A DNA stretch of 64,000 bases from Candidatus Latescibacterota bacterium (GTDB lineage Bacteria; Latescibacterota; UBA2968; UBA8231). Below the pieces are notes generated by a model that made no database searches, had not been told where the DNA came from, and was given only the letters and a program-made list of their open reading frames with translations. The stretch lies in NCBI GenBank assembly GCA_965200315.1, contig OZ241362.1:960001-1024000 (forward strand), in the 5' to 3' direction. How positions within the stretch are numbered: position 1 is the first letter of the stretch; each line of letters begins with the position of its first letter. Positions 17,602 to 53,129 of this stretch are shown here, one piece after another. The translations under genes and the position numbers were made by a program.

Positions 17602-17651
17602 GCGCCGGCCGCTTTGGTGCGGCCAATCGGATTATCTATCTTAGGGCCGCT

Positions 17652-19004: not shown

Positions 19005-19012
19005 AATCAGCA

Positions 19013-20437: not shown

Positions 20438-20442
20438 GGACT

Positions 20443-20838: not shown

Positions 20839-20841
20839 GCC

Positions 20842-22368: not shown

Positions 22369-22457
22369 CCGCGCCCGGCATTTGGCATCTAGCCAAGAAC
22401 TCCATAGCCTATCCGCAGCGAATTGCCCAGCATCCTCTACACCATGTCAACTAGCCC

Positions 22458-24440: not shown

Positions 24441-25071
24441 TTGAATTTTAGAGCGCATCGCGCTTTAGGCGAAATCGACTATGAGGTTCTAATGAAACTC
24501 TTACTTGCTGCCTTACTTAATTTTAAGTCTTACAATACGCTGCTTGCTGAGGTCGGTAGACTCGACCCTGATACAGAGGCGTCTCAGGGTTTCGCGCCGG
24601 CAGAAATCATAGAGAAGGTCAAGCAATTTGATCTTGACATGCGTCTGCTCAACGTGACACTGCGCGGATATCAGGCGTTTGGAGCTAAGTACGCCCTCGT
24701 TCAAAAGCACACCATCCTCGGAGACGAGATGGGCCTAGGCAAGACTATCGAAGCACTCGCGGTCCTGTGCCATCTGAAGCGCCAAGGCGGCACTCACTTT
24801 CTAGTGGTGTGCCCGGCGAGCGTGCTAGTCAACTCGGAGAATGAGACCATTCGTCATTCCTACGTTAGAACGCCCATGTAGGCTTCATGGCCCTGAACGG
24901 GTACAGCGGCTCGGTGTATGGGCGGAGCAAGGAGGCTTGGCAATCACCACGTTCGACACGTTGAAGTTTCTAAACTTGCCGTATGATCTCACAATTTCTG
25001 CGATGATTGTCGATGAGGCGCACTTTGTGAAAAATCCGCGTACGCTAAGGACGATTGCGGTACGCCAATAA
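24441..25071 (+). pseudogene. SNF2-family helicase fragment, frameshifted
   Basis: LRGYQ, GDEMGLGKT (motif I) and VVCPAS (Ia) are in one frame; ITTFD and IVDEAHFVKN (motif II) are in another. The shift is near 24860. There is no C-terminal helicase domain, and GC is lower than in the flanks. Confidence 0.85.
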
Positions 25072-25202: not shown

Positions 25203-26129
25203 ATGAAACGCATCGCTATTCTCTTTGCAGTTCTCGCCTTGGCGGCCCTGCCCAATACGGGCCAAGCACACTGGGATGCCGGCACGGTTTGGTTTGTCGT
25301 CCAGTTTCCCGACGGGGCTACCCCCACCATTGACGGCAATCACGGCGACTGGGACGGAGTGCCAGCCTCCTATGGCATCGACAACTCGGTCTTTAACGAC
25401 GCCCGTGGCCTAGTGCCCGAAGGCTGGAGCAACGCCGACTGGGACGTCACCGACTTCAGTATGTTGCACCGGGTCGGCTGGAACGAAACGGACAACAAGA
25501 TCTATATGGCCACCCAGACCTTCGACGACGAGCACAACATGGATCGTACCAGCCACTGGAGCGAGGACGATTCGTGGGAGGTGTCGTTTACCTATAACCA
25601 CGACGCCTATGCCGATGACGGCGGCTACGTCGACATCAACGACGAAAACATCGGCATCAATACCCGCTACAACTTCTCAGTACCCATCCATCCGACTCTC
25701 GGCGATTGGTTCTGGTTGCGGCCGGGCGAGTTGACCGGCACCGAGTGGATATGGCCCGGCACTGATTGGCTCGAATTCAACTACACTTGGGATGGCGACG
25801 AATTCGGCGAGAGCACCTATTACTACGAAATGGGTCTCACGCCCATAGGCTCGTACCCCAAGGGCCAAGAGGGCGGCTACCAGCCCGACGATGTGGAGGT
25901 ATGGGATCTGGAAGAAGGTCAGATCATCCACATTTCCATCGTCCAGATCGACAACGACGGCGATTTCAACAACTATCGCACCCCCGGTTGCTGCGGCTAC
26001 TGGAGCACCCTTGATAATTGCTGCTCGTCCGTCAACGATTGGTTTCTCGCTGAACAGGACCCAGCCTTTGTCGCTTCTACTGCGGTCGAAGACGACAGCT
26101 GGGGCCGCATCAAGGCCCGCTTTAAGTAG
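25203..26129 (+). CDS. secreted acidic protein, CBM9/DOMON-like, with C-terminal STAVEDDSWGRIKARF motif
   Basis: AAGGAGGT SD; Sec signal MKRIAILFAVLALAALPNTGQA; PTIDGNHGDWD, RVGWN, DDSWEV; Trp/Asp-rich. Confidence 0.8.
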   Translation: MKRIAILFAVLALAALPNTGQAHWDAGTVWFVVQFPDGATPTIDGNHGDWDGVPASYGIDNSVFNDARGLVPEGWSNADWDVTDFSMLHRVGWNETDNKIYMATQTFDDEHNMDRTSHWSEDDSWEVSFTYNHDAYADDGGYVDINDENIGINTRYNFSVPIHPTLGDWFWLRPGELTGTEWIWPGTDWLEFNYTWDGDEFGESTYYYEMGLTPIGSYPKGQEGGYQPDDVEVWDLEEGQIIHISIVQIDNDGDFNNYRTPGCCGYWSTLDNCCSSVNDWFLAEQDPAFVASTAVEDDSWGRIKARFK

Positions 26130-26179
26130 GTCATATTTCCGCTGGAATCGCTTCAATCCAGCTAGAGGGCAACTCTCGG

Positions 26180-26215
26180 AAGCCCGTGTTCCACGCTGGA
26201 ACACGGGCTTTTTTT
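26180..26215 (+). terminator. intrinsic terminator/stabilising hairpin within the locus
   Basis: AAGCCCGTGTTCCA-CGC-TGGAACACGGGCTT followed by T5. Confidence 0.88.
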
Positions 26216-26252
26216 GGTTCTGCGCCAAAGGCGTACATCCAAAGGGGACCGC

Positions 26253-28415
26253 ATGAGAAAACACAGGGTATTATGGCTGGTCGTTGCGCTGGCGAGTCCA
26301 GTGCTGGGCGATCGGGCCGAATTCGCGCTGGGCGGAGAGGACGGCAATCCCTGGACCATCCCCCTCGCTCTCGAAGGCGAAGAAGGCGGCTTCTACACCG
26401 TGTACGGCACCGACGGCCAAGTCTTGCGAACCGAGTCGGTGGGCACATCCCCCCAGTGGGTCGGTGCCGATACCCTGATCAGCTACGCCGATGGGGCCAT
26501 GACTCCATCTTGGGTTGACCCCAACTTGAACCTGACTCACATCGTCAGTTGGGACCAAAACGGCCAGAGCCAAGTGCCTTTTCACGATCTGGGCGGCAAT
26601 ATCCGCGTCACCCAAGGCGAGAATTCGGCCTTCATGGGCATGACACTGCCCAGTACTCTGCGGGCCTACGACGGCGACCGCACCTCGGCCATGTTCCGCA
26701 TCTTCGTCCAGCGCGTGGGAGCACCTCCGGGGGTCGGGCGCGGCTTCCGCAACAATACCATTACCAATTTCGGCGCTGAAATGCCCATCAATCGCATCCG
26801 CTTCTATCCCCGGCTCAGCAAGACCGAAGACGCCCATATCATCGCCGCCATGGCCGAGCCCAAACCCGATCCCGACACATTTGGCGAGGAGAGCTTTGCC
26901 GCCAATTTTCTCGAGTGGTACGAAATAGGTATAGCCAACAACAGCGCTCCCATCGCCGACGATGCCTTCGCGGTCCCCAAAGGATTGCGCTGGCACAAAG
27001 TCCTCTCCTCGGCCGGCCTCGGCGGCTACCGGGTGAGCAACGATTCGGCTTATACCATTCTGCGTAGCGTGCGCGAAAACCTCGATGTGGTGGTCGACTT
27101 TCGCTTCCCCCTACAGCACATCCGCTGGGTCGCCATCCGCGCTTTGGACCCGGTGCGCGACTGGGAAATCGCCGAGGTGGAAATCTACGGACAAGGCTTT
27201 GTGCGCAAAGCGCGCTATCTAACCGACATCCTCGACTTTGGCCAACCCATCAACTGGGGCAAAATCCGCTGGAGTGGCCAGCACCCTCCCGGCACCCAAG
27301 TCGAAATCCGCACCCGCACGGGCACCGACCACAACCCCCACATCTACTGGGAACCCAACGCCATTACCGGAGAGGCCGAGGAAATTAGCTTTGACGAGCA
27401 CTTCAGCCTACCCGTCCGCGAGCGCGAACCCCCGCTATACGACCGCGACCACTGGAGCTTTTGGTCGCCTCCCTACGACTTTGAGGACGGCTTGCGCGAC
27501 CACGCTCAGGAGGCGGCCGCTTGGGCCGACGGCACGGTTCTCCAGTCGCCCTCTCCAAGGCGCTATATGCAGTTGCAAATCACCTTGTTTGCCACCGAAA
27601 CCGAGGCTCCACGCCTCGACGAGCTACAGTTTCAGCTAGCCCACTCCCTGTCGGCTTCCGCCCTGCTGGGCGAAATCTGGCCGATCGAAGTCGCCGACGC
27701 CCGCTCCCAGCGTTTCACATACGTGGTGAGCCCGGATTTTCAGACCGACGACACGGGCTTTGACCGACTCGAGATCAGCACCCATACCCAAGTTGACACC
27801 GTCTATCACGTCAAAATCGGCGGCGTGGAGGTCAATCTGGCGGCCTTCCCACCCCAAGTGCTAACCGATCGCATCATCGTATCGCTAGACCGCAAGCTGT
27901 CAGACCCGGAGACAGATCGCTTTAAGCAAGTGGAGGTCGCCTTCCAAGTGCCGGTCCTGCGCTTCGGCACTGAATTTGCCGGCTGGGTGTACAACAGCGA
28001 CGACCCCGATCGCATCAAGCAACAAGTACAGCCGGGCAACGCCACCTTCCGCTACGCTGGCGATGTGCTAGCCGTGCGCACCCGCGTAGGGGGTAGGCTG
28101 TTGACGGATGTGCGAGTGCATCCCAACCCTTTTACCCCCAACAACGACCGCGTCAACGACACCTCACAACTGTCCTTTGACGTGCGCGAAGTGGTCGCAC
28201 GCCGGCCCCTGCAAGTGGCCCTGTACGACCTATCGGGCCACGAGGTGCAGACCTTGGCTACCACGCAGATCAAAACCGGGATAGTAGAATATTCTTGGGA
28301 CGGCCGCCGGTCCGACGGCCGCCTGGTGGCCCCAGGCATCTATATCTACCGCATTCGGCTAGATACCGACGAAGGTGTAGAAGAACAAGTTGGCACCATT
28401 TCGGTCGTTTACTAG
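26253..28415 (+). CDS. secreted protein with discoidin-like region and FlgD-Ig/CHU_C-like C-terminal domain (paralogue 1)
   Basis: Signal peptide; INRIRFYPR, WEIAEVEIYGQGF, IRTRTG, WSFWSPPY, SPSPRRYMQ, PNPFTPNNDRVND, YDLSG, WDGR, PGIY; ends ISVVY. Confidence 0.8.
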   Translation: MRKHRVLWLVVALASPVLGDRAEFALGGEDGNPWTIPLALEGEEGGFYTVYGTDGQVLRTESVGTSPQWVGADTLISYADGAMTPSWVDPNLNLTHIVSWDQNGQSQVPFHDLGGNIRVTQGENSAFMGMTLPSTLRAYDGDRTSAMFRIFVQRVGAPPGVGRGFRNNTITNFGAEMPINRIRFYPRLSKTEDAHIIAAMAEPKPDPDTFGEESFAANFLEWYEIGIANNSAPIADDAFAVPKGLRWHKVLSSAGLGGYRVSNDSAYTILRSVRENLDVVVDFRFPLQHIRWVAIRALDPVRDWEIAEVEIYGQGFVRKARYLTDILDFGQPINWGKIRWSGQHPPGTQVEIRTRTGTDHNPHIYWEPNAITGEAEEISFDEHFSLPVREREPPLYDRDHWSFWSPPYDFEDGLRDHAQEAAAWADGTVLQSPSPRRYMQLQITLFATETEAPRLDELQFQLAHSLSASALLGEIWPIEVADARSQRFTYVVSPDFQTDDTGFDRLEISTHTQVDTVYHVKIGGVEVNLAAFPPQVLTDRIIVSLDRKLSDPETDRFKQVEVAFQVPVLRFGTEFAGWVYNSDDPDRIKQQVQPGNATFRYAGDVLAVRTRVGGRLLTDVRVHPNPFTPNNDRVNDTSQLSFDVREVVARRPLQVALYDLSGHEVQTLATTQIKTGIVEYSWDGRRSDGRLVAPGIYIYRIRLDTDEGVEEQVGTISVVY

Positions 28416-28425
28416 GAGCCTGAGC

Positions 28426-30483
28426 ATGTTGAGAAGCCGCCTACTTGTTCAAAGCCTAGCAGCCCTTGTCCTCACGGCCCCGGTCGGAGCCTTGGATACG
28501 CTCAGTGTGGGCTTGGACGCCCCCATCGACTGGGATGGCACCGGTGCTGCTATCGGTACGCTGGACCCAGAGTACCGCAGCTTGGTCGATCCCAACGTAG
28601 TGCTGGTAGGCAACTCTCCAGGCGAGCTCATCGACTTCGCCCAGCGAGTCTTAGCACCCCGGGAACTGCGAGAGGGCGAAAACATCGCTTCGGGCACCCT
28701 CGAACGAGGCGGCACCATAGCCGCCCCGACGGTGCTGCGCTTCACCACCGACTTCACTCGCGAGGACCTCATCGAGGCCCTCGCCGAAATCCTCAGCGAC
28801 CTAGCCGGCGGCGAGACCCAAGCCTTTGAGCGCAAAAGTGGCGACGTGCGCGGCACCCTCATCATCGGCGACTTAGGAGCCCGCTTCGGCGTCAATCGCT
28901 TTCGCTTCTATCCGCGCAATACGGTCCATCCCGCGCCCACGGCCGCCTTTCAAAACGACTTTCTGCGCGCGTTTGAGCTGTTTGTCAACGACGGACTCAA
29001 CCTTACGGCCGATGGTTTTCCCGTGTGGGGCGCGCCCATAGTGGATGAAGCCCAAAACACCAAGCCCGTCGTTGACATCGAATTTGATCCGCCCCGTTAT
29101 ATCCGTTCCTTCCGCCTGCGCTCAGACACGCCCATCCCCTTTGAAATAGACGAGATCGAAATCTACGGCACCGGCTTTTTGCCGGCAGCTACGTACTTCT
29201 CGGATATCTTCGCCCCGGGCCTTGCGGCTTGGGGTCATATTCGCTGGGTGGAAAAAGCCGTCGGAGACTCGGCCCAGTCCAGCCTGCTGATTTCCACGCG
29301 CAGCGGCAATGACGACACTCCTTTTCTTTTTCACCGCCAGCGCAAGGACAAGCGCACCGACCCCGAGATTCCCTTCTCCATTGCCGAGCCCACCGAGCCC
29401 ATGCGCCTAGACGAATACAAGCGACTCCCCATAGTAGATGACAACGGCGTCGAGTGGTCCAAAGGCTCAATCAAGGACGATCTAGAAAACTGGAGCCCTT
29501 GGAGCCCTCCCTATCCGCTCGACGAGGGCACGTCCCCCCAAGGCACCCCGATCATCTCCCCTTCGCCGCGGCACTACCTCCAGTTCCGCGTCATCGCTCA
29601 GAGCAATGATATCCATTCGGCGCGCCGCCTTGAGCACATCTCCCTTTCGTACCTGACTCCACCACTGGCCGACGAATTCGTTGCCGAGATTTTTCCCCGC
29701 CAAGTAGAGGCTTCGACCTCTACTTCCTTTACCTACGCCGTCCGCATGCGCATAGATTCGCCAGACCTATTGGGATTCGATACTTTTGCGATAACTACCC
29801 CCATTCGGGTAGAACAGGTGGAACAAGTGGAAATTCTCGATACCCAAGGCCAGCTAGTCGCTTCCCACTCCTTTGCACAAGGCGATACGGCTGGTGGTTC
29901 GGGGCTTGCCATCAACGCCATTGCAGAGGACCACTTCAGTGTGCGCTTTCCGCGCATTCAAGCCGATGACAGCCTGCTGAAAATCAGGTTTCGCGCGGCC
30001 GTACTGGCCTTTAGCACCGAATTTCGCGGGCAGGCTTCGCTGTCGAGTGAACCCGGTTCGTTTCAAAACGCCACCTCGGGCAATAGCGCCAATTTGGGGG
30101 ACGAAGACCAGTCCATCCGCTCCGGCACCACGGTGCTCAGTCCCTCGATAATCCGCAGCGAACGGCTGATCGATGCCCTCGAACTGACGCCCAACCCCTT
30201 TACGCCCAACGGCGATAGGATCAACGACCAAGTCGCTATCGCCTACAACATCCTAGCGCTGACCAAGACCGGTGCCGTTGCGGTGCGCCTGTACGACCTG
30301 TCGGGCCGGCTGGTACACACCCTACAGCAGACGGCGCTCAGCAACGGTCGCTACGCCCTTGGTTGGGACGGGCGAGTCGCTGACGGCCAGCTCGTCCCCC
30401 CAGGCGTGTACTTGTTGGGCATAACCGTGGCCGGGGACCTGGGCGACGACCTGCAGGCACACCCTCTATACATAGCCTACTAA
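28426..30483 (+). CDS. secreted FlgD-Ig/CHU_C-like CTD protein (paralogue 2)
   Basis: AGGAG SD; signal peptide; VNRFRFYPR, FEIDEIEIYGTGF, WSPWSPPY, SPSPRHYLQ, PNPFTPNGDRIND, YDLSG, WDGR, PGVY; ends LYIAY. Confidence 0.8.
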   Translation: MLRSRLLVQSLAALVLTAPVGALDTLSVGLDAPIDWDGTGAAIGTLDPEYRSLVDPNVVLVGNSPGELIDFAQRVLAPRELREGENIASGTLERGGTIAAPTVLRFTTDFTREDLIEALAEILSDLAGGETQAFERKSGDVRGTLIIGDLGARFGVNRFRFYPRNTVHPAPTAAFQNDFLRAFELFVNDGLNLTADGFPVWGAPIVDEAQNTKPVVDIEFDPPRYIRSFRLRSDTPIPFEIDEIEIYGTGFLPAATYFSDIFAPGLAAWGHIRWVEKAVGDSAQSSLLISTRSGNDDTPFLFHRQRKDKRTDPEIPFSIAEPTEPMRLDEYKRLPIVDDNGVEWSKGSIKDDLENWSPWSPPYPLDEGTSPQGTPIISPSPRHYLQFRVIAQSNDIHSARRLEHISLSYLTPPLADEFVAEIFPRQVEASTSTSFTYAVRMRIDSPDLLGFDTFAITTPIRVEQVEQVEILDTQGQLVASHSFAQGDTAGGSGLAINAIAEDHFSVRFPRIQADDSLLKIRFRAAVLAFSTEFRGQASLSSEPGSFQNATSGNSANLGDEDQSIRSGTTVLSPSIIRSERLIDALELTPNPFTPNGDRINDQVAIAYNILALTKTGAVAVRLYDLSGRLVHTLQQTALSNGRYALGWDGRVADGQLVPPGVYLLGITVAGDLGDDLQAHPLYIAY

Positions 30484-30484
30484 C

Positions 30485-32140
30485 ATGAACAGAATACGCA
30501 TCGCTACTACAGCTTGCACCCTGATCGGAGCCTTTTTATGGGGCTGCGGTGAACAGGAGTCCCCCAGCGTGGTTCAGATTGGCCCGCACGCCATCACCGC
30601 CGAGGATCTCCGATCCTACATCCTAGGGCTAAACGAAAGCCAGCGGAGCCACCAAGAAGGCCCGGCAGCGCGGCGCGAGTACCTCCAGCCCCTCATCGAC
30701 TACCACCTCATGTGGATGGAAGCCCAAGCCCTCGGTTTGGACACCGCGGCCGCAGTCCAGCGCCAACTAGAGCGCAGAATCCGTCGGCACTTAGTCGTCC
30801 TCTATCTCAAGCACAAACCCGTGCAACCGCCCCTCGTCGACGAAGCCGAGATCAAACAGCGCTTCGAGCGCAAGCGGCTTCACCGCACGTTTGAGCGAAT
30901 GACTTGGGGCATTATGGCCAAGGCGCGGCCGGAACTAGACCAAGCCGTGGCCGAGTTGGCCGCCGGCACTCCGTTTGGCGAAGTAGCAGCCCGCTACTCC
31001 ATCACGCCCGATGCAATCAACGGAGGCGAACTAGGCTGGCTCCGGGTGGAATCCATCCGCCGCATGGGCCTCCCCGATTCGCTGTTCTACGATTTGCCCT
31101 TGGGGGTCTTATCGCCCGTACTGCCCCACTCCGCCGGCTTTTGCGTCGTGCGCTTTACCGAGGAACGACCGGTATCCTACTTCGACTTCCGCGACGAAAT
31201 CCTCCAAGAGCTCCAAGAGGAAAGGCTCGGCGAAGCGCGGGTGGCCCGGGCCGAACAATTGGCCGACAAATACGACTGGAATCTCCACGAGCGAGGGTTG
31301 CGCCTCCTGCTGGAAAAAGGCCAGCCATTGGCGGCCTTGGAACTGACGCCAGAGGAAGAACGAACGCCTTTGTTCGAGTTTACGGGCGGCCAAGTGCCCC
31401 TAGGCGAGCTGCTCGACCAGCTCAAAAACCGCAACATCAACGCCGCAGCCGACAGCGCCGCCTTGGTCCAACTCGCCGAGCGCTTTCTGCTCCAGCCCTA
31501 TATCTTTGCCGCCGCGGTCCGCCACGAGAATTTGATTGACCGCGAGGGCCTCGAAACGGTGCGGCAGAGCCTGCGCGAAGAGGTCGTCATCAGCCAACTG
31601 CACCAGCAAAAAGTAGCGGCATCCATCACCATTGCCCCAGAGTCCGTGCGCCGCTACTACGACGAGCAGACCGAGCGCTTCCTTCGCCGAGACCAGATCG
31701 ACGTGGCCGAAGTGCTGGTGGAGACCGAGGAAGAAGCGCTAGCCGTGCGGCGGCAAATCGAAGCGGGAGCCGACATCGCTGCCCTAGCCCAAGAGCGCAG
31801 CAAACGCCGCGGGGTCCGGGCGCGGAGCGGCGTCTTTCCCATGGAGAAAACTTCGGACTTAGTGCCCCATATCCTAGCCGCGCAGCCGGGCGAGTTGGTC
31901 GGGCCGGTACAAGTCCACGACGGCTTCTCGGTATTCGAGATCGTCCGTCGCCAGCCGGGGGAACGCATGCCTTTTGCCCAAGTCCGTCGGCAGATTGGCG
32001 ACATGCTGCGCCGGGCCGAGGAGCAGGGGCGGTTTCAAGCCTATATAGAAACCCTGCGCCAGCAATACGCCGATCAGATCCAAGTGGACCAACAGCAATT
32101 AGCTGCGGCCCTGCCCGACGATTTCCTCACCGCCTTTTGA
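30485..32140 (+). CDS. lipoprotein peptidyl-prolyl isomerase (PrsA/SurA-like, two parvulin domains)
   Basis: Lipobox FLWGC; FGEVAARYS..GGELGW; DIAALAQERS; GELVGPV..DGFSVFEI. Confidence 0.85.
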   Translation: MNRIRIATTACTLIGAFLWGCGEQESPSVVQIGPHAITAEDLRSYILGLNESQRSHQEGPAARREYLQPLIDYHLMWMEAQALGLDTAAAVQRQLERRIRRHLVVLYLKHKPVQPPLVDEAEIKQRFERKRLHRTFERMTWGIMAKARPELDQAVAELAAGTPFGEVAARYSITPDAINGGELGWLRVESIRRMGLPDSLFYDLPLGVLSPVLPHSAGFCVVRFTEERPVSYFDFRDEILQELQEERLGEARVARAEQLADKYDWNLHERGLRLLLEKGQPLAALELTPEEERTPLFEFTGGQVPLGELLDQLKNRNINAAADSAALVQLAERFLLQPYIFAAAVRHENLIDREGLETVRQSLREEVVISQLHQQKVAASITIAPESVRRYYDEQTERFLRRDQIDVAEVLVETEEEALAVRRQIEAGADIAALAQERSKRRGVRARSGVFPMEKTSDLVPHILAAQPGELVGPVQVHDGFSVFEIVRRQPGERMPFAQVRRQIGDMLRRAEEQGRFQAYIETLRQQYADQIQVDQQQLAAALPDDFLTAF

Positions 32141-32166
32141 ACGGTCGCACAACTTGGAGAAACTCC

Positions 32167-35100
32167 ATGAACCGCAAACACTACAGCCGTTGGAGCCGGG
32201 TTTGGGCCTTAGCTTTTGGGTGTTTGGCCCTCCAGCAAGTCAGTGCCCAAGTGCCCTTAGGCCACCATCTACAAGGCGACCGCATCATCGTCGACAAGGC
32301 TTCCTATTGGCGACACTGGACTGGGCCCTCGCACGTAGTCGATGTGCATCCAGACGGGACGGTCAAGCCCCATTTTTTCCGCCACGTGTACAACATCATC
32401 GCCGAAGATCGCGCGGCATTTGCCAAACCCGTGGACCAACCGGGCATCCGCAAGGCAGACCGGGCGATTATGAACCTCCAGCGCGCCCCGACTGTGGAAG
32501 CAGACGGCAGCTTTACCCTCGGTAAAGCCGAGCAACTGATCAAATTTCTCGACCGAGATTTCAAACGCTTCCCCGGCAACGACAGCCAGCTCCCCATTAA
32601 CGGCCGGCTCCTAACCATCGTCGACACCACCCTCAGCGGCGACGGCAAGACCGTGACCCTGAGCCTGCGCGACGAACGCACGGGGGTAGCATCGACGCGC
32701 GAATTTGGCGCCAAAGACAAAATCGCATTCCCAGTGTACGACTACGTCCAGCGCGTCGGCGTCAGCCGGGTAGGTTCCAACGAAGCCCTAGCCCCCCACA
32801 TTGTCGATGGCGACCACGACACCTTTTGGGAACCGGACTTAGCCGCCACGCCAGACAAGTGGTGGATCGAGATCGACTTGGGCCGCGCGCTCGTGGTCGA
32901 GAAGATAGTGCTACACTTTGTCGATGAGACCTTGGGCGACCCCTTCCGCCAGTTCCGAGTCATGCTAGCCCCCCAGCAGAAGCTCATTCAAGCCCAAAGC
33001 CGCGTACTCCAGTTCAAGGTGGTCGGCCAAACCGAGGCTCCCAATACGGACCAGCGGACGATGGCGTTTTCTTCCGCGGATACGCCCGGCTTTTCCGAAG
33101 ACGACGACGGCCGCACCGAGTGGACCGGCCGCATGGCTCAGACGCTGCGCATCCTCATCGGCGACAGCAAGCTGGGGCGGGCACACCAAATCGACCAAGC
33201 GGCGTGGGATGCCCTGTCGGCCAGCGAACGGGGCGATGTGCTCTACTACATCCGCGACGACGTCGGTTTTGAGGAGCCGGTAGAGCAGGCTATTTACGAG
33301 AGCCTTCCCCAAGAACAGCAGGGCCGCAAAGAGTACTATATCCGCGAGCGGCCCCGGCTGGCCGAAGTCGAAGTCTGGGGCTGGGGCGATAACCTCTCTC
33401 CCCAGCTAATTGACGGGGGCGGTAGCGTTAGCTTTACCGGACCGGAAGTCCCGGCTGGGGGCTTTGACGGCGACTGGAACACCACCTTCCGCATGCCAGC
33501 GTGGTTCAGCAACAACCCCACCGCTGGCATTCTCACTGTCGATATTGGCGCCCGCGTCTGGCTCGACGCCATGCGCTTGGCCGTTCCCTTTATTCCCGGC
33601 TACATCACCGAGGTGGCCGACGGCAGCCGCGATCCCAACGGCCGGCTTCGGTGGCGACAGATCAGCCTACCCGACCGCATGGAAGGGGGATTCACGCGCG
33701 CCGCCGACCTCTTCGACCCGCCCCTAGATATCCGCTTTCTCAACCTGCGCCTGCCGGGCATCGCGCGGACTTCGGGCTTTTTCTACGACCTGACCGAAGT
33801 CCTGCTCTACACAGAGGGGTTTGTTAGCCAAGCCTCGCTGGTGTCCGATATCATCCGCCTGCCGGGACCGCGCAACTTCGGGGCCATCCGCTGGGATCCG
33901 CCGCCCGGCACGCAACCACCCGGCACGACCGCGGAAGTGCGGACGCGCACCGGCGATCTGCTGGTGCAGCAAATTCGCCATTTCGACGTCAACGGCAACG
34001 AGAAAACCAAAGAAGAATGGGACAAGCTAATCAGCAGTTGGAAGGGACCTATCGACACTACCTTTGCCCTCGGCAGCGGCTGGAGTCCTTGGAGCCAGCA
34101 GTACCTACAGCCGGGCGACCGGGTCCGTTCCCCCGGGCTGCGCAATTATATGCAGTTGCAGGTGCGTTTTACCAGCCAAGACCGCCAACAAGCCGCCTCC
34201 ATTCGCTCCATCGAGGTAGAGCTGGCCCCGCCAGTGGCCCGCGCCCTCACGGCCGAAGTATGGCCCACGCAGGCCGTCGTTGGCCGCTTGGACACGTTCG
34301 ACCTGTATCTGCGCCCGGTATTCATCGACGAACCAGCGGCCGACCGCACCCTAGGCTTTGACGAAATCCTGCTGCAAGCTCCTCCCGGGCTCGCGCTGCA
34401 CCTTCTGAGCCTCAGCACGGGGACCGAGGAAGAGCTAAGCCAAGGAAACCCCTTGCAGACGTTTAGCCTCGCCGCCGATGGCCACCTGACCGACGCTACT
34501 GGGGCCATCGCCCAAGTGCGGCGCAACCACGCCGACTCCATCTGGGTCCTGCTGCCCCAACTACACCAGACCCTACCGGCAGAGCAGGCGATCCAGACCT
34601 ACCACCGCATTACCCCCCAAGGGGCCGAAGTCATGGTTGGTGAGGACGGCGACCCGATCACCGAGGCCGCCTACGGTCTGCTCAACGAGGCCGAGCGCGG
34701 GGCTATCCTCTTCTTGCGGCAGACCGCCGACGGCTTGGCAGCGGTCTCTGGCCGCGCTGAGTACGATGACTTGCCCCCAACCGAACAAGGGCCGATTCGC
34801 TATTTCCGCAAACTGCGCGGCGGCGGGGCCCAATCGCCCTTTGACTCCTTGGGCGACTCCCTGACGCACACAACCTACCGAGCGTTACCAAGAGCCGAAC
34901 GCGGTGCCATCTTGGGTCAAGGCCCCCTAATCCACGTGCGCTTTGCCGCTGCCATCTTCCGCAACGGAACCACCCTTAAGCCTTTTGTCCGTCGCTCCGC
35001 CGCTGGCACCGACGGCAACTTGTGGCAGCAAGTAGAACCAGGCGACGCCACTGCGCTAACGAACAGCCGCCAACTGACGCTGAGCGTTCCCGTGGGAGGG

Positions 35101-35427
35101 CAAGTCCTCGGCGACCTGATCCTTTCCCCCAACCCCTTTACGCCCAATGGCGACGGGATCAACGACGAACTGACCGTCGAGTTTTCCATCTTCCAAGTGA
35201 CCCAAGCGCGCCAAGCGCGGCTACGCCTCTACTCACTCGACGGACGCTTGCTATGGGAAAACAGTACCCAAGTGCCAGGAGGCCCTCAGCAAATCCGCTG
35301 GAACGGCCGCGATGCGGCTGACCGCACCGTGCCCCCAGGACTCTATATATGCCGGATTGATTTTGGTGCCGATTCGGACCGGGCCACCGACACAGCCTTG
35401 GCCCGCATCGTGGCCGTAGTCTATTAG
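32167..35427 (+). CDS. large secreted FlgD-Ig/CHU_C-like CTD protein (paralogue 3)
   Basis: GGAG SD; signal peptide; DGDHDTFW..WWIEIDLGR (F5/8C-like), VRTRTG, WSPWSQQY, PNPFTPNGDGIND, WNGR, PGLY; ends VAVVY. Confidence 0.82.
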   Translation: MNRKHYSRWSRVWALAFGCLALQQVSAQVPLGHHLQGDRIIVDKASYWRHWTGPSHVVDVHPDGTVKPHFFRHVYNIIAEDRAAFAKPVDQPGIRKADRAIMNLQRAPTVEADGSFTLGKAEQLIKFLDRDFKRFPGNDSQLPINGRLLTIVDTTLSGDGKTVTLSLRDERTGVASTREFGAKDKIAFPVYDYVQRVGVSRVGSNEALAPHIVDGDHDTFWEPDLAATPDKWWIEIDLGRALVVEKIVLHFVDETLGDPFRQFRVMLAPQQKLIQAQSRVLQFKVVGQTEAPNTDQRTMAFSSADTPGFSEDDDGRTEWTGRMAQTLRILIGDSKLGRAHQIDQAAWDALSASERGDVLYYIRDDVGFEEPVEQAIYESLPQEQQGRKEYYIRERPRLAEVEVWGWGDNLSPQLIDGGGSVSFTGPEVPAGGFDGDWNTTFRMPAWFSNNPTAGILTVDIGARVWLDAMRLAVPFIPGYITEVADGSRDPNGRLRWRQISLPDRMEGGFTRAADLFDPPLDIRFLNLRLPGIARTSGFFYDLTEVLLYTEGFVSQASLVSDIIRLPGPRNFGAIRWDPPPGTQPPGTTAEVRTRTGDLLVQQIRHFDVNGNEKTKEEWDKLISSWKGPIDTTFALGSGWSPWSQQYLQPGDRVRSPGLRNYMQLQVRFTSQDRQQAASIRSIEVELAPPVARALTAEVWPTQAVVGRLDTFDLYLRPVFIDEPAADRTLGFDEILLQAPPGLALHLLSLSTGTEEELSQGNPLQTFSLAADGHLTDATGAIAQVRRNHADSIWVLLPQLHQTLPAEQAIQTYHRITPQGAEVMVGEDGDPITEAAYGLLNEAERGAILFLRQTADGLAAVSGRAEYDDLPPTEQGPIRYFRKLRGGGAQSPFDSLGDSLTHTTYRALPRAERGAILGQGPLIHVRFAAAIFRNGTTLKPFVRRSAAGTDGNLWQQVEPGDATALTNSRQLTLSVPVGGQVLGDLILSPNPFTPNGDGINDELTVEFSIFQVTQARQARLRLYSLDGRLLWENSTQVPGGPQQIRWNGRDAADRTVPPGLYICRIDFGADSDRATDTALARIVAVVY

Positions 35428-35454
35428 TAGTGTACACCAGCCAAAGGGAAAATT

Positions 35455-38115
35455 ATGGAAGCGATAAGGCTAAATACCGCGTCTGTTTTGGTGGTCTTGA
35501 GTTGTGTTTTAAGCCCAGCCTATAGCCAACCCGACTATGGCAAGCGGCTAGGCGTCCCCCGAGGGGGCGGCGAGACCAGCTATGCCCCTTATGGCCCGGG
35601 CGTCCTCTTCGACGCGCTGGACCCGACCATTAAAAAGTGGTACGTACCTCAGGAGCTGTACAACGAGTACCGCTGGCGCCAGTGGGAGTACAGCAACTAC
35701 GCCCGCAACCTGTACCAGCGCTACGTCGATATCCGGCTAGAGGGCGACTATTACTACGACCTATTTGGCAACGCCATCACCCGGGGCTGGCTCATCTTTA
35801 GCAACTCGCAGACCCAGCCGCGGCAATTTGGTAGCTCGCTGGTCAAGGCCACTCGCTTTAATAGCTGGTTTTCGGGCGTGGCCATTGCCTCGGACAGCAA
35901 GGGTCAGTACCACTACGCTCTGACGGTATCAAATCGCCTGCGCACCACGCTCACCCCTATGAGCTTTTCCAAACCCTTTTGGGACGGGGTCCAGTTCGAC
36001 ATAGCCACCGACAAATACCAAGGCACTGTCATCTACTCGCGCCTTAGTTCGCCCGGCGGGGCCTCGACCGACAACACCGAAGTCCTCACCACCAATCTAA
36101 CCACGCTAATGGGCGGTCGGGCCACTGCGCAGATCGGCGACTTCACAGAAATGGGTATTCACTTCGTCAACACCCACCAGTCCAATACCCTGCGCGACGG
36201 CTTTAAGGGCAACCCCATTGCTGGGGCCTTGACAGTTGACCAAAACCAAACCGTTTCCTTTATCGAACTGGTCCTGCGCGACGACTCGCCCGCAGACGGC
36301 AGCGGTGGAGCCGCCTTCTTCCCAGTGGGTTCGGACATCATCATTACCTATAACGACGGCACCGTTGACCGCGGCCGAGAAATCCGCTTTGAACCCGCCG
36401 TCCAAGGAGGGTTCGTCCAAGAGGGATTCATCTCGGCCGATGGCTCCGAAGAGATCCGCCTGCTCTACGACTTCGACACGCCCGCCTTCGTCAACCGGGC
36501 CTCGGGTCCCAAAGAAGAAATCGCCAAAATCGAATTCGAGCTGACCATTGGCAACGACTATCAGGTGTGGATGACGTCCAACAACCAGACCAATCGCAGC
36601 GGCGAACCTGTGCTGCTGCTGGTGGCGCAAGCCGAGGGCAATGTGCAGGACAACACCAACCTGCGCATCCTCAAATTCGAGTACGGCCTGCCCACGGCTA
36701 CTCAAATTATCGGGGCCACCCTAGAGCTGCGGGACGTGGCCGGATTCAACTTCTACGGAGAGTACGATATGAGCGTGGCCTACCGCAAATACCCCAGCGT
36801 GACGCGCACCAGCCACACCACTTCGGCGGGCGTGGCCGGAGAGCAGGTCGAGCCAGCCTGGATGATCAACCTGTCTAAGGTGGCCCATCCTTGGTTCTTT
36901 TTTGGCGAAGCGTACAGCATGGACCCGCTCTACAACACCCGCACCTTTGTCACCGGCTCGGCCGGCAATATCGACTACGAAAACGAGCGCTTCCACGTGG
37001 TGGAGTTGGTAGAAGACAACGACGACCAAGACCGCGCACCCGACCTAGTGCGCGCCGATTCGCAAGCCGGTGACCGCCGGGTCTTCCCCGGCTGGGACGA
37101 GAACTATGACTTCATCTCGGACTTCAACCAAAACGACAACCTAACCATCTCCAATGGCATCCCCGACTACGACGAAGCCTTCCTCAGACACCGCGTGGAC
37201 CGACCCGACTTCCTCTACGGGATCGACATGAACAATAACCTGTGGGTTGACCGCTTCGAAAACGACGAATCCCCAGACTACCCCTATCAGAAGGACCACC
37301 GGGGCTTCAACGTCTATATGGGATACCGGCTGACCCCGGACATCCGCCTTACCATCGGGCACCTGCGCGAGGAATTGATCTCGGCCGACAAGCGCAACCA
37401 CACGTCCTATGCCCTGTTCAGTCTAGACCGGGACAATCCCCAACAAGGGCGCTTCCGCTTTATGCAGATGGTCAAGCTGGCCCAAGACAATATCCCAGAC
37501 GACCTGCTCCAGTGGTTCCCCGAAAACACGCAGCGCGATGGCCAGTTGCAAAAAGTAGTAGATCCGCTTTTAGCCCAAGACACTTGGATTAATACCACTT
37601 GGATCGGACACAACTACAACCGAGGGGGCTTAGAGGCGCATAACTATCTCAACTTGGAACTTTTTCACCAGCGCGACAGCGCGGCTCTGCGCGAGACGGA
37701 CTCCTTTTTTGGCGTCATCAACAAACTCAGCTACCGCTACGATCTGGGGACCATCCAACTTGAGCCGCGCTGGAAAAGCGAATATCGCCGCCAAACCGTG
37801 GGGCTGTTTTCCGCCGACGAGGAGACGGTGCTGACCGAGATAGTAGGGTTTCTCTTTGGATTTCCCATCCTCAACAACACCCGCATCCAAACCGGAATTG
37901 AGTACTCTTTCGCCAACGATATGAAGCGCGACAACAACGATTTTACCGGGATCGCCGGGGCCTTGCAGCTATCCAATGTGAGTTCCTACTTGGGCTACGA
38001 GGTATCTGCCCAAGTGGGTCTCAAAGCAGATTGGCGCGATTTCAAAAGCATCGAACGCGAATCGGAAATCCTGACCCAAGGCTTTATCACCCTGTATGCT
38101 GGCCTTGGTAAGTAA
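35455..38115 (+). CDS. conserved hypothetical secreted protein, putative outer-membrane beta-barrel with acidic DxDxD-like loops
   Basis: Signal peptide ending AYS-Q. The C-terminal third has amphipathic beta-strand periodicity and ends QGFITLYAGLGK. Acidic repeats DNDDQD, DENYD and DMNNN. Confidence 0.7.
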   Translation: MEAIRLNTASVLVVLSCVLSPAYSQPDYGKRLGVPRGGGETSYAPYGPGVLFDALDPTIKKWYVPQELYNEYRWRQWEYSNYARNLYQRYVDIRLEGDYYYDLFGNAITRGWLIFSNSQTQPRQFGSSLVKATRFNSWFSGVAIASDSKGQYHYALTVSNRLRTTLTPMSFSKPFWDGVQFDIATDKYQGTVIYSRLSSPGGASTDNTEVLTTNLTTLMGGRATAQIGDFTEMGIHFVNTHQSNTLRDGFKGNPIAGALTVDQNQTVSFIELVLRDDSPADGSGGAAFFPVGSDIIITYNDGTVDRGREIRFEPAVQGGFVQEGFISADGSEEIRLLYDFDTPAFVNRASGPKEEIAKIEFELTIGNDYQVWMTSNNQTNRSGEPVLLLVAQAEGNVQDNTNLRILKFEYGLPTATQIIGATLELRDVAGFNFYGEYDMSVAYRKYPSVTRTSHTTSAGVAGEQVEPAWMINLSKVAHPWFFFGEAYSMDPLYNTRTFVTGSAGNIDYENERFHVVELVEDNDDQDRAPDLVRADSQAGDRRVFPGWDENYDFISDFNQNDNLTISNGIPDYDEAFLRHRVDRPDFLYGIDMNNNLWVDRFENDESPDYPYQKDHRGFNVYMGYRLTPDIRLTIGHLREELISADKRNHTSYALFSLDRDNPQQGRFRFMQMVKLAQDNIPDDLLQWFPENTQRDGQLQKVVDPLLAQDTWINTTWIGHNYNRGGLEAHNYLNLELFHQRDSAALRETDSFFGVINKLSYRYDLGTIQLEPRWKSEYRRQTVGLFSADEETVLTEIVGFLFGFPILNNTRIQTGIEYSFANDMKRDNNDFTGIAGALQLSNVSSYLGYEVSAQVGLKADWRDFKSIERESEILTQGFITLYAGLGK

Positions 38116-40342
38116 GGCGTTTGCGCTGCACTGGCCCAAGCTGGCGGCCTTAGCCGTCTTGGCCCTAGGCTTGCGCTTGGTTTACCTGTTCCAAGCCGCC
38201 GACAGTCCTTTTTTCGACACGCCTATTGTCGATGCCAGAAGCTATACCGAATACGCCCGCGAACTGGCGACCGGCTCTTGGGCTGGGCGTCCGCTGCCGT
38301 TCTGGCAGGCCCCTTTGTACCCCTATTTCCTCGCTGTTCTCTTTTCTCTTTTTGGCGAAAACTACTATCTGCCGCGTCTGCTCCAAGCCCTAGCCGGCAC
38401 GGCTACCTGCCTGATCGTCTTCAAGCTAGGCCGCGAGGTCTTCTCGCCGACGGTGGGCTGGATAGCGGCCCTAGGAGCGGCCCTGTACGGCCCTTTCCTC
38501 TACTTTGAGGGCGAACTTTTGCCCACGGCTTGGGCTGTACTTTTCGACGCGGTGCTGCTGTTGGTCTTGTTGTGGGGTCAGCGACGAGGCGGCGCACTTG
38601 TCGCGCTTGTCGCCGGGCTTGTCCTAGGGCTGGGCACCTTGGCCGTGCCGAACGTGTTGCTCTTTGCGCCAATAGCGGCTTGGTGGGTGTATCGCTGGCC
38701 CGCTGCGACACCGCATCGCCGCGCCCTCCATGTAGTGATCTTTGCGGCCGGCCTGCTGCTGCTGGTCGGCTCGGTGACGTTGCGCAACCGCATCGTCGGC
38801 GGTGAGTGGGTGCTCATCTCCTTCAACTCGGGAGTCAACTTCTACCTCGGCAACAACCCGGACCACGACCGCACCGTAGCGGCGCGGCCCGGAGCGGGGT
38901 GGAGCGACGTGATTGACTTGCCGCAACGCGAGGCCGGCATCACCCAGCCGGGGGCTGGCTCGAACTACCTTTTGGGCAAAGCTTGGGAGTATATACACAC
39001 CGAGCCGGGGGACTATTTGGCCCTGCTCTTACACAAGGGCTATCTGTTTTGGCACGGGGCTGAGATCCCCCGCAATACCGATCCGTACTTCGCCGCTGAG
39101 TATTCGCCGCTGTTGCGCCTTTTGCTGTGGAAATACGGCCTCGCATTCCCCTTTGGCCTCGTTTCGGCCCTCTCCCTACTCGGGGTGGCCTATGTCCTGC
39201 TCAAACCGGAACGCCGCACCCCGGCAGCTTATCTCGTCTTGCTCTTTGCGGGAATCTATATGCTGTCGGTAGTGTTGTTTTTCGTCACGGGCCGCTATCG
39301 CTTGCCGGCCGTGCCCTGTCTCTTGCTGCTGGCCGCCTATGGTGCTTGTACCTTGGCTAGTTTGCGCCATAGAGCTTTGTATCTGTCGGCTGGTGCCCTC
39401 ATCCTGCTGCTATTGGTGACCAACGCCGGGACCGCGACGAACAGCCCGCAGGTGGCCGCTTTTCACCACTACTCGCTGGCGGCTGTCTATGAGAATAAAG
39501 GCATGAAGACCAACGCCTTGCAGCACTACCGCCGCGCCGTTGAACTAGACCCATCTCACCGCCGCGCCCTGCTGGGCCTCGTCCAGATGTACGGAGCGAC
39601 CCAGCGCTACGACGATGCCGCCCACACCTGGCGGCAATTCCTCGACCACTATCCCGACCAAGACGACGTCCGCCTCCAGCTAGCCGACTTTCTGCGGCTG
39701 CGGGGCCAGCCTCAAGAATCGGTGGCCGAGTACCAAAAGCTCCTAGCGCGGCAACCCGATCAGGCCCATCTGTACCTCCGCCTCGGTCGCGCCAAAGCCG
39801 CAGCCGGCCGGCTGGTGCAAGCCGAAGCGGCCTACCTTCGCGCACTCGAACTAGGCTCCCAGTCGGCTCACTACCTGCTAGGCCAGCTATACGAAGAGCA
39901 AGGCCAGCCCGAGCGCGCCGAACAAGCCTATCAGCAGCTACTAGCCCAGCAGCCCGATCATCTCGCCGGGCTGTGCCATTTAGCCGATCTGCTGTTAAAG
40001 CGGAGGGAAGAGGAAACAGCCAAAGACCATTTGCGCGCGGCCCTGGCGCTCGATCCCAACAACGCGCACGCCTTGCGCAGCATGGGCACCTTAGAGGCCA
40101 ACCAAGATCAGTACCGCCAAGCTCTCCAGCGCTTTGAACGCATCTTGCAACACCATCCCCGCGATCTCCAAGCTCGTCGCTCCCTATCCCATCTCCTGCT
40201 CAAAACGGGTCAGCGCGAACGCGCCGATGCCGAGTACGCGCACTACCAGCGCCTAAAGCGGCAACACCTCATGCAGCAACAGACGCTGGAAAAAACCAAG
40301 GAACTAGCCGATCAACTGCGGCACATGTTCAAAGTGCCCTAG
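38096..40342 (+). CDS. GT39/ArnT-like GT-C glycosyltransferase with C-terminal TPRs
   Basis: PIVDARSY, FWQAPLYPYFLA, RLLQA, YFEGELL, NSGVNFYLGNN, FFVTGRYRLP, followed by multiple TPRs. Confidence 0.85.
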   Translation: MLALVSKAFALHWPKLAALAVLALGLRLVYLFQAADSPFFDTPIVDARSYTEYARELATGSWAGRPLPFWQAPLYPYFLAVLFSLFGENYYLPRLLQALAGTATCLIVFKLGREVFSPTVGWIAALGAALYGPFLYFEGELLPTAWAVLFDAVLLLVLLWGQRRGGALVALVAGLVLGLGTLAVPNVLLFAPIAAWWVYRWPAATPHRRALHVVIFAAGLLLLVGSVTLRNRIVGGEWVLISFNSGVNFYLGNNPDHDRTVAARPGAGWSDVIDLPQREAGITQPGAGSNYLLGKAWEYIHTEPGDYLALLLHKGYLFWHGAEIPRNTDPYFAAEYSPLLRLLLWKYGLAFPFGLVSALSLLGVAYVLLKPERRTPAAYLVLLFAGIYMLSVVLFFVTGRYRLPAVPCLLLLAAYGACTLASLRHRALYLSAGALILLLLVTNAGTATNSPQVAAFHHYSLAAVYENKGMKTNALQHYRRAVELDPSHRRALLGLVQMYGATQRYDDAAHTWRQFLDHYPDQDDVRLQLADFLRLRGQPQESVAEYQKLLARQPDQAHLYLRLGRAKAAAGRLVQAEAAYLRALELGSQSAHYLLGQLYEEQGQPERAEQAYQQLLAQQPDHLAGLCHLADLLLKRREEETAKDHLRAALALDPNNAHALRSMGTLEANQDQYRQALQRFERILQHHPRDLQARRSLSHLLLKTGQRERADAEYAHYQRLKRQHLMQQQTLEKTKELADQLRHMFKVP

Positions 40343-53119: not shown

Positions 53120-53129
53120 GAGCTGTCTC

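What the first reader, a model, noticed from the sequence alone, without database searches (positions are those of the whole stretch)
25203..40342. Candidate undescribed T9SS-related secretion/surface-complex operon
Seen: six tightly spaced co-directional genes follow a secreted CBM9-like gene. They are three paralogous secreted proteins, a lipoprotein double-parvulin chaperone, an 886-aa putative OM protein and a TPR-GT39 glycosyltransferase. The paralogues share an ordered architecture: discoidin-like region, E..(I/L)Y..GF, (W/F)G.IRW, TR(T/S)G, WS.WS..Y..SP..R.Y.Q, E(I/V)(W/F)P, GFD, PNPFTPN.D..ND, W(D/N)GR, PG.Y, terminal V/I-x-Y. Known: PNxFTPNGDGxND marks the T9SS type-B (CHU_C/TIGR04131) C-terminal signal, and in Bacteroidota such cargo is often encoded beside a PorP/SprF barrel adaptor. 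Inference: this is a cargo + chaperone + barrel + glycosylation unit that builds a hetero-oligomeric surface or uptake complex in a non-Bacteroidota lineage.
Basis: partly seen in the sequence, partly recalled or inferred. Interest (0 to 1): 0.85.

Follow-up and report, generated by a model that had tools for sequence, protein, structure and literature searches.

The report
Multi-copy barrel-and-lectin surface machine
This gene cluster is one of about 27 related copies in an uncultured Latescibacterota bacterium, each pairing a large outer-membrane barrel protein of an unnamed family with a fixed trio of exported proteins that have sugar-binding folds, and it probably forms an undescribed energy-driven machine for catching material at the cell surface.

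Summary
In detail: seven co-directional genes, and all 11 listed motifs in order in all three paralogues. It is not a single operon. This Latescibacterota genome has 27 such loci (43 barrel ORFs, 108 cargo-family ORFs; 8.5% of the genome). The 886-aa protein models as a barrel of about 22 strands that fits no Pfam, NCBIfam or PDB family. The paralogues model as non-catalytic CBM32 + Ig + CTD proteins; 12 loci keep exactly one of each of three old subfamilies, and their trees mirror the barrel tree. Barrel and cargo occur in nearly the same genomes (95 and 93 of 151), SprA in 146. The PorP/SprF analogy is weakened: core loci in distant relatives encode a separate small PorV/PorP-like barrel beside the cargo, plus ExbB, ExbD, a 1,100-aa TPR protein and often a TonB-shaped DUF4159 protein. 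Best reading (0.45): T9SS-delivered lectin caps on a new barrel, powered in trans by shared ExbBD motors, for capture and uptake, like SusCD but built from unrelated parts. Adhesion or surface display is the main rival (0.3). No function is shown. Ten literature searches found no description.

The parts
25203..26129 (+). Secreted CBM9-like protein (308 aa); one such gene in most loci; probably the abundant product
26079..26126 (+). Short C-terminal tail T-A-V-E-x-x-S-W-G-x-I-K, shared with unrelated secreted proteins; candidate sorting or docking signal
26178..26212 (+). Terminator-like hairpin (16-bp stem, T run) after the CBM9-like gene
26253..28415 (+). Cargo subfamily A (720 aa): signal peptide, split beta-sandwich core with inserted CBM32/discoidin domain, Ig domain, T9SS-like CTD ending in VVY
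28426..30483 (+). Cargo subfamily B (685 aa), same motif order, ends in IAY
30485..32140 (+). Lipoprotein with two parvulin (PpiC-type) stretches; probable dedicated folding helper
32167..35427 (+). Cargo subfamily C (1086 aa), longer, with an extra discoidin region, ends in VVY
35455..38115 (+). 886-aa outer-membrane beta-barrel of an unnamed family: aromatic-rich N-terminal segment, about 22 long strands, an inserted beta-sandwich, a long Asp/Asn-rich loop
38096..40342 (+). Membrane GT-C-fold (PMT_2) glycosyltransferase with C-terminal TPRs; accessory to a subset of loci
22458..24398 (+). DUF6785+DUF6784 membrane protein upstream; enriched near these loci but not a fixed part (a second copy at 15625-17601)

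Best explanation
The locus encodes the outer-membrane half of an energised capture-and-uptake machine that Latescibacterota keep in many versions. Shown: gene content, repetition, co-evolution, predicted folds, a T9SS core elsewhere in the genome, and ExbBD motor genes in core loci. Inferred steps: (1) the three cargo proteins cross the inner membrane by Sec and the outer membrane through SprA by their CTD, handed on by a small PorV/PorP-like shuttle encoded in a few core loci; (2) they assemble one each (A+B+C) on the large barrel or barrel oligomer as a lectin cap, with the parvulin lipoprotein helping folding and, in some loci, the GT-C enzyme adding sugars; (3) the variable CBM32 domains and the CBM9-like protein bind a polymer or oligomer; (4) ExbB/ExbD motors, a TonB-shaped DUF4159 protein and a 1,100-aa TPR scaffold, encoded in three or four core loci and shared in trans, open the barrel. 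It would work like a SusCD utilisome but use unrelated proteins.
For: 27 loci, 8.5% of the genome, a repetition like that of polysaccharide utilisation loci (comparison recalled). Barrel model pLDDT 83, pTM 0.84, alternating hydrophobicity, conserved aromatic N-terminal segment that could plug the lumen. Cargo has a CBM32 fold and no catalytic Pfam domain; the CBM32 region is less conserved than the core, Ig and CTD within subfamily A (0.23 against 0.32-0.37). 12 of 24 loci with classified cargo have exactly A+B+C, 5 more have two B2 + one C; barrel and cargo identities correlate (Mantel r 0.69, 0.87, 0.52; 0 of 2000 permutations each). Barrel in 95 and cargo in 93 of 151 genomes, both 0 of 51 in three families that all have SprA. 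Barrel + large TPR + ExbB + ExbD + cargo together in one locus of each of 5 of 5 distant genomes (5 of 14 loci read). Three of the four strong ExbB matches in this genome lie in or next to such loci. Four loci of genome G003 have barrels without cargo but with DUF4159 (3 of 4), CBM9-like (3 of 4) and DUF6785 (3 of 4) genes, which looks like channel + energiser + binding protein + membrane transporter.
Against: No glycoside hydrolase of a classical family among the neighbour proteins scanned (a chosen subset, not all neighbours), and no regulator family recurs in the loci; true utilisation loci usually have both (recalled). The barrel is not a TonB-dependent transporter by sequence and matches them only weakly by fold (Z 9-11, rmsd 6-9). 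DUF6785 does not follow the barrel across genomes: present in 51 of 51 barrel-less genomes, 0 of 13 in barrel-bearing family f10. Only 1 of 4 DUF4159 transmembrane segments has the S-x3-H motif of TonB-type transducers (motif from PMC12204202 section 8). The window's own locus has no motor genes. The terminator after the CBM9-like gene (19 of 31 paralogues) fits fimbrial operons as well as binding-protein operons. Mirror trees follow from whole-locus duplication alone. Lectin folds can serve adhesion.
Confidence: 0.45

Rival explanations
1. A surface-display or adhesion platform: the barrel anchors and positions a trio of lectin adhesins and many copies of the CBM9-like protein (a coat, fibre or motor-moved adhesion site), in the manner of fimbrial operons or the Agl-Glt machinery.
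For: Strong hairpin plus T run after 19 of 31 CBM9-like genes against 6 of 106 cargo and 4 of 42 barrel genes, the pattern of a major subunit followed by minor ones; a dedicated chaperone and a glycosyltransferase; no classical glycoside hydrolases in the scanned neighbours; core loci have ExbB + two ExbD + TPR + TonB-shaped protein + paralogous barrels, which parallels AglRQS with GltG and TPR proteins (PMC3169522, passages). SlpA, an abundant scaffold barrel with metal-bound insertions (PMC9388160, passages), is among the top fold matches.
Against: Barrels occur without any cargo in 9 of 14 distant loci (only weak CTD-type scores under 40 bits in three of them). The cargo model is complete, with its own C-terminal domain, not an incomplete pilin fold. 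Dozens of diverged copies are more than a motility machine needs (inference). No Glt family was over its cut-off for any locus protein scanned.
Confidence: 0.3
2. The large barrel is a passive, locus-specific anchor or shuttle for T9SS cargo, the functional stand-in for PorP/SprF.
For: Cargo within 10 kb of the barrel in 75 of 75 loci; co-evolution; CHU_C hits; type B cargo and cognate shuttles are commonly adjacent in Bacteroidota (PMC12618676 abstract and sections 4, 10; PMC9143113 abstract); no PorP_SprF match in the genome at E 0.001 (control did not ring).
Against: A separate 290-365 aa PorV/PorP-like barrel sits between cargo and large barrel in 4 of 5 core loci of distant genomes and in this genome (weak PorP_SprF E 0.0089; PorV family). 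The large barrel has about 22 strands and large insertions. It is linked to motor genes and occurs without cargo.
Confidence: 0.13
3. The barrel is itself an export channel, driven by ExbBD, for proteins that carry the short WGxxK tail: a second secretion route that borrows its cap from the T9SS.
For: The tail pattern has 35 matches in this genome and at most one in each of the 51 barrel-less genomes of families f2-f4, as low as the reversed control; 14 of 41 tailed ORFs are unrelated to the CBM9-like family and 11 of those lie outside the loci; usher and LptD barrels are among the top fold matches.
Against: Family f10 has barrels (13 of 13) but the tail at background (4 of 13 genomes, 1-2 matches). 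The tail follows the same T-A-V-E linker that precedes ordinary CTDs in this genome, so it may be read by SprA or a PorV paralogue. Phyla outside Latescibacterota were not tested.
Confidence: 0.12

Closest known systems
SusCD utilisomes / polysaccharide utilisation loci of Bacteroidota (PMC7618045, abstract read)
   Same: Many paralogous loci per genome; large outer-membrane barrel with surface glycan-binding partners in fixed proportions; ExbBD energy supplied in trans (inferred here).
   Different: Barrel is not of the TonB-dependent family; no SusD in the genome (control rang); partners are T9SS-type cargo, not lipoproteins; no classical glycoside hydrolases among scanned neighbours; DUF4159 in place of TonB_C.
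T9SS type B CTD cargo with cognate PorP/SprF shuttles (PMC12618676 abstract and sections 4, 10; PMC9143113 abstract)
   Same: PN-F-T/S-PNGDG-ND tail, CHU_C over cut-off; cargo encoded beside a barrel; SprA, PorV family and PorU-like genes present.
   Different: Tail scores between type A and type B and ends in Tyr (102 of 108); three cargo subfamilies per locus; the adjacent barrel is about 880 aa; a small shuttle-like barrel is separate; GldM, GldN, PorP not detected (inconclusive searches).
Agl-Glt core complex of Myxococcus (PMC3169522, passages) and vWA force transducers beside TPR, tolQ-like and paired tolR-like genes (PMC12204202, section 8)
   Same: ExbB/TolQ-like gene + two ExbD/TolR-like genes + TPR protein + single-pass transducer with a non-TonB globular end, in core loci.
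   Different: Transducer ends in DUF4159; output is a new barrel family with T9SS cargo; motor genes are missing from most copies; Latescibacter and DUF4159 are not mentioned in the main text of PMC12204202.
SlpA of Deinococcus-Thermus (PF21620; PMC9388160, passages)
   Same: Large barrel with long insertions; weak SlpA_C hits in 7 of 38 distant members (best E 7.9e-7); SlpA chains rank 2, 3 and 5 in Foldseek.
   Different: Hits seen in detail are far below the cut-off of 35 bits and cover about 100 residues; no SLH domain or coiled coil; about 22 rather than 30 strands.
Chaperone-usher fimbrial operons (FimD/PapC; operon logic recalled)
   Same: Small gene followed by a terminator, a chaperone, a large barrel with an inserted beta-sandwich, several paralogous minor proteins; many operons per genome.
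   Different: No Usher Pfam hit; fold match weak (TM 0.2); chaperone is a parvulin lipoprotein; subunits carry T9SS-type tails.

Membership tests
T9SS cargo (any CTD type) | Signal peptide plus C-terminal Ig-like CTD | tested here: met
   CHU_C over cut-off in 3 of 3, FlgD_ig in 2 of 3; model residues 549-700 match the PorU C-terminus, Z 12.4, rmsd 2.4, 98 aligned; hydrophobic N-termini seen by eye
T9SS cargo (any CTD type) | SprA translocon, PorV and PorU in the genome | tested here: met
   SprA over cut-off; 7 PorV-family matches over cut-off; C25 peptidase gene next to PorV
T9SS cargo (any CTD type) | GldLM motor and GldKN ring | tested here: inconclusive
   GldM and GldN 0 matches but controls did not ring; GldK, GldL not searched
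T9SS type B cargo | TIGR04131 at or above cut-off | tested here: not met
   18.6, 24.8, 16.9 bits against 35; Pfam CHU_C is met
T9SS type B cargo | Secretion depends on a cognate PorP/SprF shuttle | not testable with these tools
   needs experiments
PorP/SprF shuttles (for the 886-aa protein) | PF11751 match and about 300 aa | tested here: not met
   no Pfam or NCBIfam hit, 886 aa
TonB-dependent transporters / SusC | TonB_dep_Rec barrel and Plug domain by sequence | tested here: not met
   0 Pfam families; none of 13 PF00593 matches lies in the 27 loci
TonB-dependent transporters / SusC | 22-strand barrel closed by an N-terminal plug | tested here: inconclusive
   about 22 long strands counted from the secondary-structure list; N-terminal 72 residues poorly predicted; FecA Z 11.1 rmsd 6.8 273 aligned, BtuB Z 9.4 rmsd 9.3 361 aligned
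Polysaccharide utilisation locus | susC-susD pair | tested here: not met
   no SusD_RagB in the genome, control rang
Polysaccharide utilisation locus | Co-located glycoside hydrolases and regulators | tested here: inconclusive
   none of classical type in the subset scanned; one 3-keto-disaccharide hydrolase, sulfatase, enolase-family and GDSL genes seen; not all neighbours scanned
SlpA/OmpM tethers | SLH domain, coiled coil and SlpA_C over cut-off | tested here: not met
   no SLH hit; SlpA_C 15.8-21.7 bits against 35 in the four hits examined
Fimbrial ushers | Usher family match; PapD-type chaperone | tested here: not met
   no Usher hit in the window protein or 38 distant members; chaperone is parvulin
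Agl-Glt gliding machinery | Homologues of GltA-K and CglB | tested here: inconclusive
   only generic TPR matches to GltE, far below cut-off; the genome was not searched for Glt families
GT39 protein O-mannosyltransferases (for the 748-aa protein) | GT39-specific domains and activity | tested here: inconclusive
   PMT_2 27.7 bits over cut-off 26.1 shows a GT-C fold enzyme, not which family

The most novel reading that the evidence does not exclude
Latescibacterota have their own envelope machine, unrelated to SusCD: a new barrel family capped by a T9SS-delivered hetero-trimer of lectins, loaded with proteins that carry a third, very short C-terminal signal (WGxxK), and driven by ExbBD through a DUF4159 transducer and a TPR scaffold. 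It has been duplicated dozens of times and takes up close to a tenth of the genome.
Probability: 0.5. Interest if true: 0.88.

Novelty: categorically new. Interest (0 to 1): 0.76.

Why it matters
Latescibacterota are common in sponges, seawater and lakes and are thought to degrade polymers, yet this genome has no SusD and only about a dozen TonB-dependent transporters. A family that fills 8.5% of the genome and has no name is a strong candidate for how they feed or attach. It would add a new class of large outer-membrane barrels, a new output for ExbBD motors, a use of the T9SS outside Bacteroidota (a 2025 paper, PMC12618676 section 4, still calls it exclusive to that phylum) and a candidate short sorting signal. 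Each part can be tested by expression in ordinary laboratory hosts.

Tried and rejected
Complex prediction of the barrel with the CTD of cargo A gave no verdict (score 0.00, controls not folded); it counts neither way. Sequence searches of the PDB with barrel profiles found nothing useful; the F6 lipoprotein profile also nothing. Fold searches gave only generic barrels (best VIA Z 14.0, rmsd 11.5, 263 aligned; best Foldseek TM 0.28): no close family was listed, which does not exclude one. The Atlas gave only unnamed clusters at 0.99-1.00 and DUF6029 at 0.88, a lead only; nothing above 0.9 for the cargo core. RNA-library contigs from four runs of one study cover nearly the whole locus; contigs over the CBM9-like gene are deeper, but contig depth cannot rank genes and DNA carry-over was not excluded, so I do not use it. 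DUF6785 as the fixed inner-membrane partner: rejected by its distribution. A more distant barrel hidden in families f2-f4: not found in 5 of 5 genomes tried with the distant-clade profile, which rang in 5 of 5 others. The sigma-70 promoter scan was at chance level. A search with the distant-clade alignment returned only 12 proteins and no taxon names, so the range outside the phylum stays open. Barrel and cargo candidate counts correlate across 64 genomes (rho 0.71), but these are not copy numbers and kin are not independent. The careful barrel tree did not finish; the quick tree was used. Literature; others (Latescibacter + type IX secretion; Poribacteria, WGxIK and related terms) returned 0 papers; none of the listings described this system. 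Subscription journals and supplements were not searched.
Full report
Observation. All 11 motifs occur in order in each of the three paralogues. The tail matches Pfam CHU_C over cut-off in all three and FlgD_ig in two. In NCBIfam it is over the type A cut-off in two and under the type B cut-off in all three, so it is T9SS-like but not cleanly type B. The 551-aa protein has two parvulin stretches and a lipobox; the 748-aa protein has PMT_2 and TPRs. The 886-aa and 308-aa proteins have no Pfam or NCBIfam hit of their own.

Organism and scale. The window lies in a single-contig 5.36-Mb genome. Named homologues of the 886-aa protein are Candidatus Latescibacterota or Handelsmanbacteria; record titles are mostly Latescibacterota, some are labelled Gemmatimonadota, one Woeseia and one unclassified. 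Profiles built from the genome's own paralogues find 43 barrel ORFs (38 over 800 aa), 108 cargo-family, 34 CBM9-like, 33 parvulin and 10 PMT-TPR ORFs at over 60 bits, together 457 kb or 8.5% of the genome. Windows of 12 kb around the barrels merge into 27 loci covering 14.9% of the genome; they hold 81 of 108 cargo, 25 of 33 parvulin, 27 of 34 CBM9-like, 9 of 10 PMT-TPR and 16 of 40 DUF6785 genes (binomial tails from 1e-4 to 1e-44, with clustered genes not independent). Other recurrent neighbours are FG-GAP/UnbV propellers and TPR proteins, and an unnamed 250-aa lipoprotein I call F6 (13 of 15 in loci).

Conservation. Around the barrel in 75 loci from other genomes (the best hits to the window protein, so biased to near kin and often from the same genome), cargo was found in 75, PMT-TPR in 60, CBM9-like in 59, parvulin in 57 and DUF6785 in 25; gene order is shuffled. 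In 151 genomes of the phylum the barrel was found in 95, the cargo family in 93 and SprA in 146. Three families, 51 genomes, have SprA but neither barrel nor cargo was found, so the unit is an add-on to the T9SS, not part of its core. The profile finds 431 representatives at E 1e-30 or better among 1.84 billion.

The barrel. AlphaFold2 with 140 sequences gives mean pLDDT 83.3 and pTM 0.84. From its secondary-structure list I count 22 long strands between mature residues 128 and 860, with shorter strands before them, so 22 to 24; I had no coordinates to confirm closure. Strands show alternating hydrophobicity and the family mostly ends in a Y/F-A-G-L strand. By hairpin parity (inference), a beta-sandwich (221-387) and an Asp/Asn-rich loop (466-590, the most conserved region) lie on the outer face; the aromatic-rich first 127 residues are conserved but partly unconfident and could plug the lumen or bind a partner. 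Fold searches return only generic outer-membrane barrels: MtrB, SlpA, FimD, LptD by Foldseek (TM at most 0.28), Omp85 and porins by VIA (Z at most 14, rmsd mostly 6-13). Seven of 38 distant members hit SlpA_C weakly; this is a lead.

The cargo. The model of cargo A (pLDDT 89, pTM 0.84) has a CBM32/discoidin domain at 69-297 (Z 15.6, rmsd 2.1, 123 aligned), inserted into a split beta-sandwich core that carries the RTG and WSxWS motifs, then an Ig domain and a CTD like that of PorU (Z 12.4, rmsd 2.4). No catalytic domain was found in the cargo proteins scanned. A tree of 103 paralogues places 98 in five clades (supports 0.77-1.0). Of 24 loci with classified cargo, 12 have exactly one A, one B and one C, two more have at least one of each, and five have two B2 plus one C. 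Barrel and cargo identities correlate across loci (r 0.69, 0.87, 0.52). This shows duplication as whole units; the retention of one of each suggests non-redundant subunits (inference). 102 of 108 end in Tyr.

The small protein and its tail. The 308-aa family is weakly CBM9-like and ends in E-x-x-S/T-W-G-x-I-K. A strong hairpin plus T run follows 19 of 31 such genes, against 6 of 106 cargo and 4 of 42 barrel genes, so it is probably made in excess. The tail also ends 14 unrelated ORFs, many with apparent signal peptides. As a DNA pattern it has 35 matches here, at most one in each of the 51 barrel-less genomes, and is also near background in family f10, which has only the distant barrel clade.

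Export route. The genome has SprA, seven PorV-family matches over cut-off and a PorU-like gene beside PorV. GldM, GldN and PorP_SprF were not found, but those controls did not ring. SusD was not found with a control that rang.

Core loci with a motor. Eight of the 38 full-length barrels form a distant clade. Two of its three loci carry ExbB, two ExbD, a 1,080-aa TPR protein, a DUF4159 protein and F6; the third has the TPR, DUF4159 and F6 genes. A fourth motor module adjoins a main-clade locus. These account for three of four strong ExbB matches in the genome. I read 14 loci chosen from 32 matches in five distant genomes: each genome has one locus with cargo, one to three barrels, the TPR protein, ExbB and ExbD; four of these five have a small PorV/PorP-like barrel between cargo and large barrel, three have DUF4159 and four F6 within the 20 kb read. 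Of the other nine, five are lone barrels and four (G003) have barrels with DUF4159, CBM9-like or DUF6785 genes but no cargo. The DUF4159 proteins have a short N-terminus, a transmembrane segment and a basic, proline-containing linker, but only one of four has the S-x3-H motif. The layout resembles the vWA transducer clusters of PMC12204202 (section 8 read) and the Agl-Glt core (PMC3169522, passages).

Reading. The small barrel beside the cargo fills the shuttle role, so the large barrel is likely something else, and its old link to ExbBD suggests energised work. I favour capture and uptake (0.45), with surface display or adhesion (0.3), passive anchoring (0.13) and export of tailed proteins (0.12) as rivals. 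Against uptake stand the lack of classical hydrolases and recurring regulators, the independent distribution of DUF6785, and the absence of motor genes from the window's own locus. No binding, transport or localisation is shown.

What is known. Papers seen: PMC12618676 (abstract, sections 4 and 10), PMC9143113 and PMC7618045 (abstracts), PMC9388160, PMC3169522 and PMC4454575 (passages), PMC12204202 (passages, section 8), PMC12993501 (term search only: no occurrence of secretion, outer membrane, T9SS, FlgD or discoidin). Ten searches found no description of this system; supplements and subscription papers were not seen and could mention it. Statements on fimbrial operon logic and on the usual content of utilisation loci are recalled. 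Two earlier notes of this scan describe other copies of the same cassette; they agree but are not independent evidence.

Verdict. A real, conserved, heavily repeated envelope module that fails membership in each known family tested. Interest 0.76.

Noticed in passing
window 50477-53164 (-): 895-aa TPR lipoprotein resembling T9SS PorW/SprE (119.6 bits, cut-off 250) with a C-terminal TonB_C domain over the Pfam cut-off (E 4e-6). In a genome where GldM and GldN were not detected, this hints that the T9SS translocon may be coupled through a TonB-type domain.
   Followed up: partly
window 24441-24881 (+): Short SNF2 helicase fragment (E 1.9e-10) in a lower-GC stretch between the DUF6785 gene and the CBM9-like gene; looks like a decayed insertion.
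   Followed up: no
window 13792-24398 (+): A second PMT_2-TPR gene, two DUF6785+DUF6784 genes, an HTTM-like protein, an arabinofuranosyltransferase-like membrane protein and an oxidoreductase-like ORF lie just upstream on the same strand.
   Followed up: partly
G000:C1:4940613-4953884 (L026): Tandem array of six cargo-family genes with no barrel nearby; alternating B2 and C types in the tree.
   Followed up: partly
G000:C1:1296121-1302480: 2,119-aa ORF with DUF6785 fused at its C-terminus, at the edge of a barrel locus.
   Followed up: no
G000:C1 680193-681583, 2085640-2088272, 2903155-2903865: Barrel genes in pieces or truncated in three loci, suggesting turnover of copies or assembly errors.
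   Followed up: no
L121-L135 and G000 loci: Unnamed 250-aa lipoprotein family F6 with a conserved NPYT motif; no Pfam or PDB hit; 13 of 15 copies lie in barrel loci.
   Followed up: partly
G000:C1:1598472-1603339 (L116): PorU-like C25 peptidase gene directly upstream of a PorV gene, followed by a CTD-bearing metalloprotease-like gene and a propeller/BamA-like gene.
   Followed up: partly
phylum sample: DUF6785 is highly repeated in most Latescibacterota genomes sampled (137 of 151 have it) but was not found in any of 13 genomes of family f10.
   Followed up: no
window 40361-41362 (-): Fic-like ORF with a short tandem repeat of VSDQ converges on the end of the operon (family recalled from the motif, not scanned).
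   Followed up: no
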